Shown piece by piece: positions 49,976-52,526 of a stretch of 64,000 nt of DNA. The stretch is taken from the sequence record OR983333.1; one strand, written 5' to 3'. The DNA comes from Escherichia phage 1-6af. A program made the translations under genes and the position numbers. Position 1 is the stretch's first letter. Every line of letters begins with the position of its first letter. The notes under the pieces were generated by a model. That model did not search any database, was not told where the DNA came from, and saw only the letters and a list, made by a program, of their open reading frames with translations.

Positions 49976-50200
49976 TTAGATACCTTTAAGTTTAAGAATT
50001 TCGTTACGAGTTTTTTGAATCTGAGCTTCAATTTCGAAGTAGTCGTTGAACGCATCGTTCTCTACTTCATCGGATGGTGCATCAATCAGACCGAAAGCGA
50101 ACGGATACAGCTTTCGCTGCTCCGTTACTAATTCGATATGAACTCCCATATAATACTGTAGGAGAGTGATCTTTGGTTTCTTAGGAACCAGATTTGACAT
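49976..50200 (-). CDS. hypothetical protein (74 aa)
   Basis: ORF in cassette. Confidence 0.3.
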   Translation of the reverse strand: MSNLVPKKPKITLLQYYMGVHIELVTEQRKLYPFAFGLIDAPSDEVENDAFNDYFEIEAQIQKTRNEILKLKGI

Positions 50201-50414
50201 GAGGTTCTACCTTAATGCCTTTGATTTTTACATAATCAGCAAGCACGTTGTTGATCACCGTTGGGAAAGGAACCTCAACCTGTGTTTCAAGTACTTGACC
50301 AATACCAGCTTGCATCCACTTTTGGATTGCACGAAGGTTATCACATCCTGTGCTCGTCATCGGGATACGTCGAGTAGTTACAACGTTATCCAGCATCATC
50401 TTACGAATTTCCAT
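50181..50414 (-). CDS. hypothetical protein (77 aa)
   Basis: ORF in cassette. Confidence 0.3.
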   Translation of the reverse strand: MEIRKMMLDNVVTTRRIPMTSTGCDNLRAIQKWMQAGIGQVLETQVEVPFPTVINNVLADYVKIKGIKVEPHVKSGS

Positions 50415-50416
50415 AC

Positions 50417-52443
50417 TTAACCTCTATTCAATGAACATTTAGGAGAATTACAATAAACTTGATTCATAGAACCAAGCGTACAACTTTCAGCATCGCGCCA
50501 CGGAATCTGCTTAAAACACTCTGAGCAGTATCCAAGGGTTGACCACATGGCTTTGGTGAAGTCAGTGCTTCGGTTTCCGTCGAAGCTGACAACAGTTTTG
50601 CGGAGAGTTGTTCGTGATTCAGGAAACACACCTGCTTTCTCAGCAGGTTCCTCCTTTTTTGGCTTAGTTGAGATTGCAAAAATACTGTTGCTACGTTTCT
50701 CAACATAAGCATCAACAACATCCTCCAGAGTGATGCCTGTCTGTTTCGCTGAGGAAGGTAATACAGTCATACGACCAATCATATCTTCAGTTACACGTAA
50801 AGCAAACTCAGGACGACGGGCGTTTGTTGTATCTGTTGCTTTAATCCATACATAACCATCTTTGATCGTAGCATTAGATACTTTCTTCTTTACCTCTACA
50901 GCGCAGGCTTTACAGATATCTTCACCGCGAAGACGACTAAGTTCATCATCGAACTCATTCTCTGTTTTAACTTCACCACAGATTTCACAAACACCAATAG
51001 GAGTCTCCTCCTCTTCTTCCTCTTTAGGTTTAGTCAAACCTTCCAGACATTCAGGATGCCAGTAGCACTGATATGCGAAGACTGCTTTAGGTGCATCCTT
51101 CCAATCAATGTGTTTGTCACAACCACCACAATCACCATGAGAATGTGCTTCCCAGAATTTACGAGTGATAGTAACGCCATTCTTGTTGACGAAACTATCA
51201 TTCATGTCAAAAGGGATATCATCATCAAAGTCAGCAGTAGTAGACTCAGGCTCCTTTTTCTCCAGAGATGGGTCAACAAAACGACCTGCTGTGATCACTA
51301 AGCGAACCATAGCATTAACTTCGGAGATACAGGATACTGTCCCACGGTAAACAATTTTAGGGTCTTTCAGGGCATCCTGATAAGCCTTAATATCTACGTT
51401 ATGGACATCACCTTCGATATACTCTTGAGATTTCTCATCGTAGATATAACCAATCATCTTACCACGAGAAGGAACAGCACCAGCAGTTGCATAAGGAACA
51501 AACTCATGCGGAGTGATTTCCACAGTCATATCGCGGCGAATATCAATGTTTCGATCACTTGCGATTTTGTTTTGACTTACCACTGCGTTTCTTCGACGAA
51601 CATCTGCCGCTGTCACTCCCGGCTTCGTGTCGTAGGGATTGCTTGTACTGCTTTTTGAGGAACTTTGATAGTTGCTTTGGCTGTAGTTGTTCGAGTAATA
51701 ACTGCCCCAACGATTGGCTACCGTAAAAACCGGAAGCTCGTGGGCGACCTCTTCAACCAGAGTCATGCCGTTGTTTGACATATCAAAGATATACTCTGTA
51801 CCAACTTTACATTCAAAATGCTCGTCAATACGGTTCTTATGAGACTTAGAACGCTTCAGAATCCACATCAACATATCTTCTTCAGAAGCACCAAACCAAT
51901 CTCTGTTACAACGTGCGAGGTGGAAAGGACGCTCTTCGTTACGAATGATATGAAGGCGGTTATCAGAAGCATCATGCCAGATTAAGGTGAAAGCACCATC
52001 CAGCTTTTGAATAGTCTCTGCTGCACCGATAGTGTTAATAGAGTGGCAGATGTTCTCGCTGTCTACCTCGAAGCTTTTGCTGTCAGGTAACAGATCTTGG
52101 TCCATCAAGGTTCCATTATGAACCAGAGTGATGTTACCATGTTGGAAAGGATGGGCGTTCTTGGCGTTAACTGCACCTTTCGTTGCATGACGACTGTGAC
52201 CAACAATCCATGAAGGTGCTACAGTGTAAGCTGTTTCACCAGTGGTGTGCTTCTTGTACTCATCTTGTAGGATGAATGCGAAAGAAGGAAGAGCTTCTTT
52301 ATAAGTGAAGACTTCCTTAGTGCTTTTACGCTGACCAAAGATACCGGAGGAATGTTGTCCTCGGAATACTCCAGCATAAAAGAGTTGGTTGAATACGTCT
52401 AAATCAGTGCTTGACAGATTACCGCCAGCTAATACGATGCCAC
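50417..52443 (-). CDS. class-II (Ntn) glutamine amidotransferase-like protein with C-terminal zinc-ribbon region; frame-broken N-terminus
   Basis: CGIVLAGG ... RGQHSSGIF ... AHPF.HGNITLVHNGTL resembles PurF/AsnB N-terminal domain; needs frame change near 52376-52381 and has no canonical start at Cys codon. Confidence 0.5.
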
Positions 52444-52526
52444 AAATTTTCTAATCCACCTGAAGGGTAAACCCTTTCATCTAATTAACCTTTAAATTGT
52501 GCCCCTTTGTCAGAGGCACCCATTGA

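What the first reader, a model, noticed from the sequence alone, without database searches (positions are those of the whole stretch)
52370..52480. Amidotransferase gene has no canonical start at its catalytic Cys and needs a frame change in a T-run
The catalytic Cys codon (52441-52443) is preceded in frame by att, aaa and a TAG stop (52450-52452). The nearest in-frame ATG (52477-52479) opens a 9-codon mini-ORF ending at that TAG. An AGGTGG Shine-Dalgarno lies 8 nt before the ATT codon. Downstream, the conserved PurF-like sequence continues only after a shift at ctc-ttt-atg (52376-52381); one extra T in the T-run would restore ...NQLFYAGVFRGQHSSGIF. Either the gene is a recent pseudogene, the assembly has homopolymer errors, or expression involves non-canonical initiation/recoding followed by propeptide cleavage to expose Cys1.
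Basis: seen in the sequence. Interest (0 to 1): 0.5.

Follow-up and report, generated by a model that had tools for sequence, protein, structure and literature searches.

The report
Phage amidotransferase gene starting at ATT
The gene is intact, needs no frame change and starts at a rare ATT codon directly before its catalytic cysteine. The same small RNA hairpin, strong ribosome-binding site and ATT arrangement recurs, with compensating stem mutations, in many unrelated phages carrying this enzyme.

Summary
The window is a phiEco32-like Kuravirus (100% identical to Escherichia phage 1-6bf over the 801 bases compared).

On the minus strand the reading frame runs unbroken from ATT (52447-52445) and TGT/Cys (52444-52442) to the stop at 50419-50417, 676 codons. 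The proposed frameshift is a miscount. The T-run has four Ts, and ...NQLFYAGVFRGQHSSGIF is already in frame.

- No ATG, GTG or TTG lies in frame between the TAG (52453-52451) and TTG 52108.
- AGGTGG sits 8 nt before the ATT.
- A 9-codon ATG mini-ORF ends at that TAG.

**Why this is not a pseudogene or sequencing error.**
- Ninety-eight phage records carry the 76-nt leader at 90% identity or more.
- phiEco32 RefSeq and SU10 annotate the gene from this ATT.
- Codons 1-112 have dN/dS of 0.09.
- SU10 gp85 was detected by mass spectrometry.

**New observation.** Among 88 homologue clusters, 20 of 22 ATT/ATC-start lineages have a 5-8 bp hairpin of unrelated sequence directly 5' of a strong ribosome-binding site. 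Only 6 of 64 ATG lineages do (p = 2e-12). All five stem pairs covary.

**Best reading.** Translation starts at AUU, driven by the ribosome-binding site, within a conserved structured initiation cassette. Removal of the initiator Met then exposes Cys1.

The parts
50417..52447 (-). Complete CDS of the phage class-II (Ntn) glutamine amidotransferase-domain protein. It has 676 codons plus a stop, starts at ATT, and is orthologous to phiEco32 phi32_83 and SU10_085.
   Evidence: Single-frame translation has no stop. The length matches the 2031-nt CDSs annotated from the same ATT in NC_010324 and KM044272.
52445..52447 (-). ATT, the inferred initiation codon.
   Evidence: It is the only start-like codon between the in-frame TAG and Cys1. 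It is invariant in 98 phage records. ATT or ATC occupies the same position in 22 lineages of homologues that lack any canonical in-frame start.
52442..52444 (-). TGT, the catalytic N-terminal Cys (Cys1 after Met removal).
   Evidence: It is invariant in alignment A1. In the profile search against the PDB it aligns with Cys1 of mature GlmS (1xff) and PurF (1ecb).
52456..52461 (-). Shine-Dalgarno sequence AGGTGG, 8 nt before the ATT.
   Evidence: Read directly from the sequence. Other ATT lineages have AGGAGG, TAGGAG or GGAGG at the same distance.
52448..52455 (-). A-rich 8-nt spacer ATTAGAAA, containing the in-frame TAG (52453-52451).
   Evidence: Read from the sequence. The identical spacer occurs in BUCT695, L021, L117 and L148, each with a different hairpin.
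52463..52476 (-). 5-bp hairpin AAGGG-TTTA-CCCTT, ending 1 nt before the Shine-Dalgarno sequence.
   Evidence: Predicted in the MFE and centroid folds. In the covariance-model alignment all 5 pairs show compensatory changes and 100% of cells are paired. An equivalent hairpin is present in 20 of 22 ATT/ATC lineages against 6 of 64 ATG lineages.
52451..52480 (-). Mini-ORF ATG AAA GGG TTT ACC CTT CAG GTG GAT TAG. It spans the hairpin and the Shine-Dalgarno sequence and ends 3 nt before the ATT.
   Evidence: It is conserved in the E. coli phages and BUCT695. It is absent from L117 and L148, which share the SD-spacer-ATT sequence.
52481..52496 (-). Invariant A/T-rich block TTTAAAGGTTAATTAG. It is the 5' edge of the ultra-conserved island and its role is unexplained.
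   Evidence: Alignment A2. In BUCT695 this position holds AATGTA, the gp36-type promoter core described in PMC12276001.
52499..52519 (-). 8-bp G+C-rich hairpin after the amidoligase gene. It resembles a terminator but has only a weak T-run.
   Evidence: Fold. The stem changes in a compensatory way between genera. A terminator is annotated here in WFI101126.
52376..52384 (-). The site of the alleged frameshift. It reads CTC TTT TAT and is in frame.
52106..52108 (-). TTG, the first canonical in-frame start. Gene callers begin a truncated ORF here that lacks Cys1 and 112 conserved residues.
   Evidence: The ORF list gives 50417..52108. The 1-6bf record annotates only the truncated form. Many records show 'none' under the leader.
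51694..52444 (-). Glutaminase (Ntn) domain, residues 1 to about 250.
   Evidence: Pfam GATase_6 and GATase_7 score above their cut-offs. The profile matches GlmS and PurF glutaminase domains at E = 1e-17 to 1e-10.

Best explanation
The gene is an intact early gene for a class-II (N-terminal-nucleophile) glutamine amidotransferase-domain protein. It sits in the phiEco32 amidoligase / COOH-NH2-ligase / ATP-grasp cluster.

Translation starts at AUU (52447-52445). It is directed by the AGGUGG Shine-Dalgarno sequence 8 nt upstream. The initiator fMet is then removed by deformylase and methionine aminopeptidase, which leaves Cys1 as the catalytic N-terminus. No frameshift, readthrough or propeptide is needed.

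The AUU is part of a conserved structured initiation cassette: a 5-8 bp hairpin, 0-2 nt, a strong Shine-Dalgarno sequence, an 8-nt A/U-rich spacer, then AUU-UGU-GG.

What is shown here: the anatomy, its conservation, covariation of the hairpin, its statistical link to AUU/AUC starts, and its restriction to this gene.

What is inferred:
- The weak start codon keeps synthesis low and sensitive to IF3, as in infC.
- The in-frame stop just upstream prevents N-terminally extended, inactive enzyme.
- The hairpin keeps the Shine-Dalgarno sequence exposed and docks the 30S subunit, or protects the 5' end of a poorly translated mRNA.
For: **The gene is intact**
- The frame is continuous.
- No canonical start lies between the TAG and TTG 52108.
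- Codons 1-112 have dN/dS of 0.087 with dS of about 1.6. Over the same comparison the 55-nt leader is 52-53/55 identical.
- 98 phage records hold the 76-nt leader at 90% identity or more, 68 of them at 99% or more.
- RefSeq phiEco32 and SU10 place the CDS start on this ATT, and SU7 annotates a ribosome-binding site there.

**The cysteine is the catalytic residue**
- Cys aligns with Cys1 of GlmS and PurF, and the RG, HNRxATxG, HNG and DSE motifs are conserved.

**The protein is made**
- SU10 gp85 was detected with 9 peptides (PMC4281155).

**The ATT start recurs across the family**
- ATT or ATC directly precedes Cys in 22 cluster-level lineages that have an upstream in-frame stop and no canonical start.

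**The hairpin is linked to the ATT start**
- 20 of 22 ATT/ATC lineages have the hairpin, against 6 of 64 ATG lineages (Fisher p = 2.4e-12).
- The local folding energy differs between the two groups (p = 5e-11).
- All 5 stem pairs show compensatory changes. The covariation score is 1.07 against 0.22 in shuffles, reached in 0 of 500 shuffles.

**The cassette is specific to this gene**
- It occurs once in the window.
- Across the other fetched loci, every candidate combining the hairpin with no canonical start in the first 25 codons lies at a GATase 5' end.
Against: - No direct evidence for the N-terminus exists. The SU10 proteomics database held the truncated 63.8-kDa form.
- AUU is a poor start codon in E. 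coli reporters, six- to eight-fold below AUG (PMC3592434). Expression may therefore need help.
- In the phiEco32 group a mini-ORF ends 3 nt before the AUU, so re-initiation may contribute.
- The 52-nt island is far more conserved than hairpin, Shine-Dalgarno sequence and start codon alone would require. It is about 90% identical between E. coli and Aeromonas phages whose proteins are 51% identical. Part of its function is therefore unexplained.
- The role of the hairpin is inferred from association only.
- Three ATT lineages (L089, L120, L109) lack the hairpin.
Confidence: 0.8

Rival explanations
1. Termination-reinitiation. Ribosomes translate the 9-codon mini-ORF (52480-52451), melting the hairpin as they go. 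They terminate at UAG and re-initiate 3 nt downstream at AUU with help from the Shine-Dalgarno sequence inside the mini-ORF. This mirrors thrS-infC (UAA GGU AUU). The start codon is the same, but the delivery route differs and could act alongside de novo initiation.
For: - The stop, 3-nt gap and AUU geometry is the same as at infC. There, reinitiation and de novo initiation contribute about equally in reporters (PMC3592434).
- The mini-ORF ATG, with AAGG 8 nt upstream, is invariant in all E. coli phage genera.
- The ATG is also kept in BUCT695.
Against: - BUCT695 has no Shine-Dalgarno sequence before the mini-ORF ATG. It does have an AATGTA promoter core that would put the transcript start on or after that ATG.
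- L117 and L148 share GGAGGATTAGAAAATTTGTGG but have no start codon for a mini-ORF.
- Most other ATT lineages have no in-frame mini-ORF.
- The only two substitutions in the mini-ORF are non-synonymous, F to L and V to A.
Confidence: 0.2
2. The hairpin does not help the ribosome. It is instead an operator for a translational repressor or activator (phage or host protein), or purely a 5'-end or processing-site stabiliser of the mRNA segment. The weak AUU is then an independent trait.
For: - The island is conserved nucleotide-for-nucleotide, loop and spacer included, well beyond structural need.
- ATT lineages have a short intergenic spacer, whereas ATG lineages mostly overlap the upstream gene.
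- In BUCT695 the hairpin would lie at the very 5' end of a transcript from the AATGTA motif.
Against: - Stem and loop sequences differ completely between lineages, with loops TTTA, GTT, TGCG, GGAA, ACT and others. No common recognition sequence exists.
- The hairpin always abuts the Shine-Dalgarno sequence within 0-2 nt. That is not required of a stabiliser.
- ATG homologues with intergenic spacers of 18-80 nt lack the hairpin.
Confidence: 0.3
3. Translation starts at the upstream ATG (52480) and reads through the UAG. This gives a 12-residue propeptide that is cleaved autocatalytically, as in B. subtilis PurF.
For: - The ATG is in frame and exactly 12 codons before Cys.
- In locus L056 an ATG at the same position is open, with GAG in place of TAG.
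- Propeptides are known in some class-II amidotransferases (established knowledge of B. subtilis PurF).
Against: - The TAG is invariant in 98 records.
- No tRNA gene, and so no suppressor tRNA, is present in the window.
- In 47 long ORFs of the window, TAG is used only as a rare terminal stop.
- Most ATT lineages have in-frame stops and no start upstream.
- The L056 ATG has no Shine-Dalgarno sequence.
Confidence: 0.03
4. The 5' part is dead. The real product starts at TTG 52108 or the next ATG (563 or 562 aa) and lacks the nucleophile. This is a truncated or pseudogenised amidotransferase, as many GenBank records annotate it.
For: - Gene callers give this ORF.
- 1-6bf and many other records annotate it this way.
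- The SU10 paper lists 63.8 kDa.
Against: - Codons 1-112 have dN/dS of 0.087.
- Cys1, RG and HNRxATxG lie in this part and are invariant across the family.
- The start cassette is ultra-conserved.
- The 63.8 kDa figure is a database value, not a measured size.
Confidence: 0.02
5. Sequencing or assembly error: a missing T in a homopolymer and/or ATG misread as ATT.
Against: - The frame is continuous as given.
- The same ATT and leader appear in 98 records produced on different platforms since 2008.
- They also appear in independent metagenome assemblies.
Confidence: 0.01

Closest known systems
E. coli infC (IF3) AUU start, 3 nt after the thrS stop; also pcnB AUU
   Same: AUU is the only possible start. 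A Shine-Dalgarno sequence lies upstream. A stop codon sits 3 nt before the AUU (UAA GGU AUU there, UAG AAA AUU here). The expected outcome is low, IF3-sensitive initiation.
   Different: - In infC the AUU serves autoregulation of IF3 itself. No such logic applies to a phage amidotransferase.
- No covarying hairpin abutting the Shine-Dalgarno sequence is part of the infC description, as far as I recall.
- Here the upstream ORF is a 9-codon mini-ORF, and it is absent in most lineages.
phiEco32 gp83 / SU10 gp85 'glutamine amidotransferase' (RefSeq YP_001671828, AIF71837)
   Same: It is the same gene at 97-99% identity. Both records start the CDS at this ATT.
   Different: Nothing differs in the gene. 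The literature I could search does not discuss the ATT, the leader or the hairpin. Savalia 2008 could not be read.
Class-II (Ntn) glutamine amidotransferases GlmS, PurF and AsnB
   Same: An N-terminal catalytic Cys exposed by Met removal. The glutaminase fold motifs are conserved.
   Different: - There is no SIS, PRTase or asparagine-synthetase domain.
- The C-terminal roughly 425 residues have no Pfam match and carry CxxC pairs.
- The widespread product name 'L-glutamine-D-fructose-6-phosphate aminotransferase' is therefore not supported.
B. subtilis PurF 11-residue propeptide
   Same: An in-frame ATG lies 12 codons before Cys1.
   Different: An invariant in-frame TAG interrupts it here. No propeptide is required.
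Structured 5' elements next to the Shine-Dalgarno sequence (the psbA 5' stem-loop required for translation, PMC2120278; the 5'-terminal stabilising hairpins of ompA-type mRNAs)
   Same: A small stem-loop lies directly 5' of the ribosome-binding site.
   Different: Those are single-gene cases with AUG starts. Here the hairpin is tied to AUU/AUC (and some UUG) starts across about 20 diverged lineages of one phage gene family.
Iyer-Aravind phage peptide-ligase/amidoligase systems (Pfam Amidoligase_2; COOH-NH2_lig 'phiEco32-like')
   Same: The gene neighbourhood matches: Amidoligase_2 at 53630-52527, COOH-NH2_lig at 55060-54254, an ATP-grasp homologue at 49973-48777, and the amidotransferase between them.
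   Different: That work concerns protein function, not the start codon or the leader.

Membership tests
Class-II (Ntn) glutamine amidotransferase domain | The catalytic Cys is the first residue of the mature protein | tested here: met
   The Cys codon follows the ATT directly. In the profile alignment it matches residue 1 of the mature chains 1xff (GlmS) and 1ecb (PurF). It is invariant in A1.
Class-II (Ntn) glutamine amidotransferase domain | Conserved glutaminase motifs (Arg-Gly, H/N-R-x-A-T-x-G, H-N-G oxyanion hole, Asp of the D-S/T-E motif) and Pfam GATase_6/7 | tested here: met
   R28, G29, H83, R85, A87, T88, G90, H109, N110, G111, D128 and S129 are invariant. GATase_6 scores 54.4 bits against a cut-off of 27, and GATase_7 scores 27.4 against 25.
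Class-II (Ntn) glutamine amidotransferase domain | Glutamine hydrolysis with ammonia transfer | not testable with these tools
   Needs an enzyme assay.
GlmS (glutamine-fructose-6-phosphate aminotransferase), the name used in many records | C-terminal tandem SIS isomerase domains | tested here: not met
   Residues 250-675 have no Pfam hit. PDB profile matches stop at the glutaminase domain.
PurF (amidophosphoribosyltransferase) | C-terminal phosphoribosyltransferase domain | tested here: not met
   No PRTase hit.
AUU-initiated bacterial genes (infC type) | AUU at the position of the start, with no canonical in-frame start between the upstream stop and the conserved N-terminus | tested here: met
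AUU-initiated bacterial genes (infC type) | Shine-Dalgarno sequence at functional spacing | tested here: met
   AGGTGG is followed by 8 nt. Other lineages have AGGAGG or GGAG at the same spacing.
AUU-initiated bacterial genes (infC type) | The AUU is conserved among orthologues | tested here: met
   It is invariant in 98 records and recurs in 22 diverged lineages.
AUU-initiated bacterial genes (infC type) | Initiation at AUU shown experimentally and modulated by IF3 | not testable with these tools
   Needs toeprinting or reporters with and without IF3.
Programmed ribosomal frameshift or recoding site | The downstream conserved sequence lies in a different frame from the upstream part | tested here: not met
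   A single frame runs from 52447 to 50417.
Propeptide-bearing Ntn amidotransferase (B. subtilis PurF type) | An open in-frame extension from a canonical start to Cys1 | tested here: not met
   An in-frame TAG lies two codons before the ATT and is invariant.
Any described RNA family (Rfam 15) | A match reaching the gathering score | tested here: not met
   The best matches score 16-17 bits against gathering scores of 44-70.
Conserved RNA hairpin (structure under selection) | Base pairs maintained by compensatory changes | tested here: met
   All 5 pairs show changes on both sides and 100% of cells are paired. Slid controls give 17-40% paired. In 20 lineages the stems have unrelated sequences. 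Caveat: the alignment was fitted to the model.

The most novel reading that the evidence does not exclude
The hairpin, Shine-Dalgarno sequence, 8-nt spacer and AUU-UGU form a portable translational control cassette specific to phage Ntn amidotransferase genes. On this reading it is exchanged between unrelated phages: the 72-nt match is about 90% identical between E. coli Gordonclarkvirinae and Aeromonas Grimontviridae, although their proteins are 51% identical. It would gate synthesis of the enzyme on the state of the host initiation machinery (IF3) or on an unidentified factor that reads the invariant leader. That would make it a new class of cis-regulatory element built around a non-AUG start.
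Probability: 0.25. Interest if true: 0.65.

Novelty: new variant of a known kind. Interest (0 to 1): 0.45.

Why it matters
**Annotation.** Gene callers cut off the catalytic N-terminus of this enzyme in most of the roughly 100 Kuravirus-like genomes and in many metagenomic homologues. The truncated calls recovered and resolved show this directly. Those records need an ATT start. The product name 'GlmS-like aminotransferase' is also unsupported.

**Biology.** About one in six to eight sequences in unbiased samples of this phage enzyme family uses AUU or AUC, a start codon that is very rare in bacteria. Nearly all of them carry a covarying hairpin abutting the ribosome-binding site. This is a natural, replicated experiment on how non-AUG initiation is made to work or is regulated. 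It can be tested directly in E. coli with phiEco32 or SU10.

Tried and rejected
- **Frameshift or homopolymer error:** rejected by direct translation.
- **Known RNA family (glutamine riboswitch, glmS ribozyme and others):** nothing found in Rfam near threshold.
- **Suppressor tRNA for UAG:** no tRNA genes in the window.
- **Alternative hairpin sequestering the Shine-Dalgarno sequence (GGUUUACC/GGUGGAUU):** The two substitutions in BUCT695 break it while sparing the 5-bp hairpin, so I do not favour it.
- **Long-range helix GGUUAAU..GAUG/CAUC..AUUAGCU enclosing the start region:** predicted in the 76- and 131-nt folds. Z-scores are unremarkable and the outer part is not kept in BUCT695, so I left it as unexplained.
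- **Sigma-70 promoter in the leader:** none found on the coding strand.
- **Covariance model R1 on the 'AGGAGGATAG' lineages:** the model was too sequence-specific and its alignment was unusable. I used a direct hairpin search with statistics instead.
- **Second copy of the cassette, or other ATT-start genes in the window:** none found.
- **Literature:**
  - The Savalia 2008 phiEco32 paper is not held.
  - The SU10 supplements do not list the peptides.
  - Searches for ATT or AUU starts with hairpins found no description of this cassette.
- **Cultured phages with ATG homologues:** DL54, tf, VP506, Vp_R1 and CW02 all have an ordinary ATG-TGT and no hairpin.
Full report
**What the window is**

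The region matches Escherichia phage 1-6bf at 100% and phiEco32, SU10 and about 60 other Kuravirus genomes at 95-99%. About 30 members of Suseptimavirus and Nieuwekanaalvirus match at around 81%.

The gene lies on the minus strand inside the phiEco32 'amidoligase' cluster:
- Amidoligase_2 at 53630-52527
- a phiEco32-type COOH-NH2 ligase at 55060-54254
- an ATP-grasp homologue at 49973-48777

**Checking the observation**

Reading the minus strand and translating 52480..50417 in one frame gives MKGFTLQVD*KICGIVLAGGNLSSTDLDVFNQLFYAGVFRGQHSSGIFGQRK... and then 675 residues without a stop.

| Feature | Coordinates (minus strand) |
|---|---|
| Mini-ORF ATG | 52480-52478 |
| AGGTGG | 52461-52456 |
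| Spacer ATTAGAAA | 52455-52448 |
| In-frame TAG | 52453-52451 |
| ATT | 52447-52445 |
| TGT (Cys) | 52444-52442 |

The ORF list confirms that the first in-frame ATG, GTG or TTG after the TAG is TTG at 52108, 113 codons downstream.

The codons at the alleged shift site are CTC TTT TAT GCT (52384-52373), and the T-run has four Ts. The 'restored' sequence NQLFYAGVFRGQHSSGIF is already encoded in frame. No frame change is needed.

**Not an error and not a pseudogene**

- A 76-nt query covering the leader and first codons finds 98 phage records. All cover at least 80% of it: 68 at 99% identity or more, 28 at 95-99%, and two Aeromonas phages at 90%.
- The phiEco32 RefSeq record (phi32_83) and the SU10 record (SU10_085) start the 2031-nt CDS on this ATT. 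SU7 annotates a ribosome-binding site there.
- Between the window and KBNP1711, the 112 codons that gene callers discard have dN/dS of 0.087 with dS of about 1.6. Against ECBP2 the synonymous sites are saturated. This stretch is therefore translated.
- SU10 gp85 was seen by mass spectrometry with 9 peptides and 23.7% coverage. The listed mass of 63.8 kDa is that of the truncated database entry, so the N-terminus was not addressed (PMC4281155).
- The window has no tRNA genes. TAG terminates only 2 of 47 long ORFs. Nothing suggests that stop codons are reassigned.

**What the protein is**

- Pfam GATase_6 and GATase_7 score above their cut-offs.
- A profile of 30 homologues matches the glutaminase domains of GlmS and PurF at E = 3e-17 to 1e-10. 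The family's Cys aligns with residue 1 of the mature chains 1xff and 1ecb.
- Cys1, Gly2, Arg-Gly, HNRxATxG, HNG and DS are invariant.
- There is no SIS or PRTase domain, and the C-terminal roughly 425 residues have no Pfam match.

It is therefore a class-II Ntn amidotransferase domain protein, but not GlmS or PurF. An Ntn enzyme needs Cys as its first residue, so the start must be the codon directly before TGT unless a propeptide is cleaved off.

**The leader is an island of extreme conservation**

Aligning the window with SU7, KBNP1711 and Aeromonas phage BUCT695 shows about 52 nearly invariant columns, while both flanks diverge. The conserved block reads ATTAGATGAAAGGGTT[T/A]ACCCTTCAGG[T/C]GGATTAGAAAATTTGTGG[C/T]ATCGT.

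- Against the other E. coli phage genera the 55 nt before Cys are 52-53/55 identical. The adjoining coding sequence is 70-74% identical.
- BUCT695 belongs to Grimontviridae. Its protein is 51% identical and its closest relatives use ATG without this leader (L030-L033).
- This points either to very strong constraint or to transfer of the leader as a cassette.

**The family-wide pattern**

I sampled homologues in three ways:
- by protein similarity from IMG/VR (80 loci)
- by protein similarity from metagenomes (80 loci)
- by looking up N-terminally truncated gene calls from the protein search

Most homologues begin ATG-TGT. A recurrent minority have ATT-TGT or ATC-TGT, with an in-frame stop 2-19 codons upstream and no canonical start in between. 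Every truncated gene call that could be resolved turned out to be such a case or a TTG start.

In the two unbiased samples, ATT/ATC accounts for 12 of 65 and 8 of 64 distinct sequences.

Nearly all of these loci share one architecture: a perfect 5-8 bp hairpin with a 3-5 nt loop, 0-2 nt, AGGAGG/TAGGAG/AGGTGG, an 8-nt A/T-rich spacer, and then ATT.

| Locus | Hairpin |
|---|---|
| window | AAGGG-TTTA-CCCTT |
| L056 | CCGTA-TTTA-TACGG |
| L064 | GAACCT-GTT-AGGTTC |
| L081 | AATGC-TGCG-GCATT |
| L108 | AAAGC-GGAA-GCTTT |
| L115 | GATACC-ACT-GGTATC |
| L117 | GTGACAG-TATCC-CTGTCAC |
| L148 | CCTGA-CAAGA-TCAGG |

After clustering at 60% amino-acid identity there are 88 clusters:

| Start codon | Lineages with hairpin ending at -18..-11 |
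|---|---|
| ATT/ATC | 20 of 22 |
| ATG | 6 of 64 (five A/T-only and essentially unstable, folding energy 0 to -1.2 kcal/mol) |
| TTG | 3 of 5 |

- Fisher's exact test for ATT/ATC against ATG gives p = 2.4e-12.
- The Mann-Whitney test on local folding energy gives p = 5e-11.
- ATG homologues that also have an 18-80 nt intergenic spacer still lack the hairpin. The link is therefore not simply a matter of having a spacer.

A covariance model built from five leaders recovered twelve. In that alignment all five pairs change on both sides and 100% of cells pair. Slid registers give 17-40% paired, and the covariation score is 1.07 against 0.22 in shuffles, reached in 0 of 500 shuffles. The alignment was fitted to the model, which favours the structure. 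However, the unrelated stems listed above make the same point without any alignment.

The cassette is gene-specific:
- The model hits the window once.
- I scanned for a Shine-Dalgarno sequence followed by ATH and a long ORF with no canonical start.
  - In the window, the only candidate that also has the hairpin and no canonical start in the first 25 codons is the amidotransferase gene.
  - In the other fetched loci, candidates of that kind all sit at a GATase 5' end.

**How it most likely works**

Shown here: the mRNA carries a small hairpin abutting a strong Shine-Dalgarno sequence, an optimal 8-nt A-rich spacer and AUU. This arrangement is under selection.

Inferred:
- The 30S subunit is placed by the Shine-Dalgarno sequence, and fMet-tRNA reads AUU. 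In E. coli reporters AUU initiates six- to eight-fold less well than AUG (PMC3592434). By analogy with infC, initiation at AUU should be sensitive to IF3.
- Deformylase and Met-aminopeptidase then expose Cys1.
- The in-frame stop just upstream, present in every ATT lineage but one, would prevent N-terminally extended, dead enzyme.
- The hairpin may hold the Shine-Dalgarno sequence open and stack on the SD-antiSD helix. Alternatively it may protect the 5' end of a poorly translated message. I cannot tell these apart.

**Rival explanations**

The main rival for the phiEco32 group is re-initiation after the mini-ORF.
- For it: UAG-AAA-AUU copies the thrS-infC junction UAA-GGU-AUU, where re-initiation contributes about half of expression.
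- Against it as the general mechanism:
  - L117 and L148 share GGAGGATTAGAAAATTTGTGG but have no mini-ORF start.
  - BUCT695 lacks a Shine-Dalgarno sequence for the mini-ORF.
  - BUCT695 also carries the gp36-type AATGTA promoter core, centred at -11.5 according to PMC12276001. That would put the transcript start on or just after that ATG.

UAG readthrough with a propeptide, a truncated product from TTG 52108, and sequencing error are each very unlikely for the reasons given above.

**What remains unexplained**

- The nucleotide-level invariance of the whole 52-nt island goes beyond the needs of a hairpin, a Shine-Dalgarno sequence and a start codon. It includes the loop, the spacer and the block TTTAAAGGTTAATTAG (52496-52481).
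- A predicted long-range helix (GGUUAAU..GAUG with CAUC..AUUAGCU) would enclose the start region. It is not kept in BUCT695 and has no significant z-score.
- No Rfam family matches.

**Novelty**

I did not find any description of two things (Savalia 2008 was not readable):
- the enrichment of AUU/AUC starts in this phage enzyme family
- their tight association with a covarying hairpin next to the Shine-Dalgarno sequence

I rate it a new variant of a known kind (non-AUG initiation), of moderate interest.

Noticed in passing
window 52109-52447 (minus strand); records: Most GenBank records of Kuravirus-like phages leave the first 113 codons of this gene unannotated or call a truncated ORF from TTG/ATG at about 52108. 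This removes the catalytic Cys. The truncated metagenomic gene calls whose contigs I fetched were ATT starts or, in one case (L118), a TTG start.
   Followed up: yes
window 50420-51700 (minus strand): The C-terminal roughly 425 residues of the protein have no Pfam match and contain several CxxC pairs (for example HGDCGGCDKH...CYWHPEC, CEICGE...CKAC, CSECFKQ...CNSPKC). This suggests zinc ribbons. The common product name 'L-glutamine-D-fructose-6-phosphate aminotransferase' is not supported, because there is no SIS domain.
   Followed up: partly
window 52499-52519 (minus strand): An 8-bp G+C-rich hairpin lies between the amidoligase stop and the leader. Its stem changes in a compensatory way between Kuravirus, Suseptimavirus and Nieuwekanaalvirus (GTGCCTCT/AGGGGCAC, GCGCTCT/AGGGCGC, GTGCCTC/GGGGCAC). 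It is followed by AATTTAAA rather than a clean T-run, and it is annotated as a terminator in WFI101126.
   Followed up: partly
L007 3000-3020; L027-L033 just upstream of the ATG: In Aeromonas phage BUCT695 and related 82-97 kb contigs, the motif TTTAAATGTAA lies directly upstream of the amidotransferase gene. It contains AATGTA, the core of phiEco32 gp36-dependent promoters. The phiEco32-like phages have TTTAAAGGTTAA at the same place. This may be a decayed or altered internal promoter.
   Followed up: partly
L056 399-439: This distant homologue (not clustered with the window at 60% identity) has a leader with the same prefix GATGA, the same TTTA loop, the same linker C and a similar Shine-Dalgarno sequence and spacer. 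Four of its five stem pairs are swapped in a compensatory way. Its in-frame ATG sits exactly 12 codons before Cys, as in the window, but is not interrupted (GAG instead of TAG), and the start-position codon is ATC.
   Followed up: partly
L109 1490-1520 and L128: Two closely related sister lineages (65-66% identical to the window protein) share an upstream hairpin but differ at the start. One has ATG-TGT. The other has GTG ACT AAA ATT TGT, where either the GTG inside the AGGTGA Shine-Dalgarno sequence or the ATT could initiate. The start codon type therefore switches over short evolutionary distances.
   Followed up: no
Three recurrent SD-spacer 'types' are each shared by several lineages with different hairpins. 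They are GG[AGTC]GGATTAGAAA-ATT, TAGGAGATGAGAAA-ATT/ATC and AGGAGGATAGnnnn-ATT. They do not obviously follow the rough protein tree. This hints that cassettes are exchanged between phages.
   Followed up: no
window 52411-52438 (plus strand): A sigma-70-like match (TTGACA, 16 nt, TACGAT; 10 of 12) lies on the strand antisense to the first codons of the amidotransferase gene. About 0.9 such matches are expected by chance in the 400 nt scanned.
   Followed up: no
window 50181-50414 (minus strand): The small ORF directly downstream of the amidotransferase gene matches Pfam DUF7195 (E = 5e-17). The same small genes follow the amidotransferase gene in phiEco32, SU10 and BUCT695.
   Followed up: no
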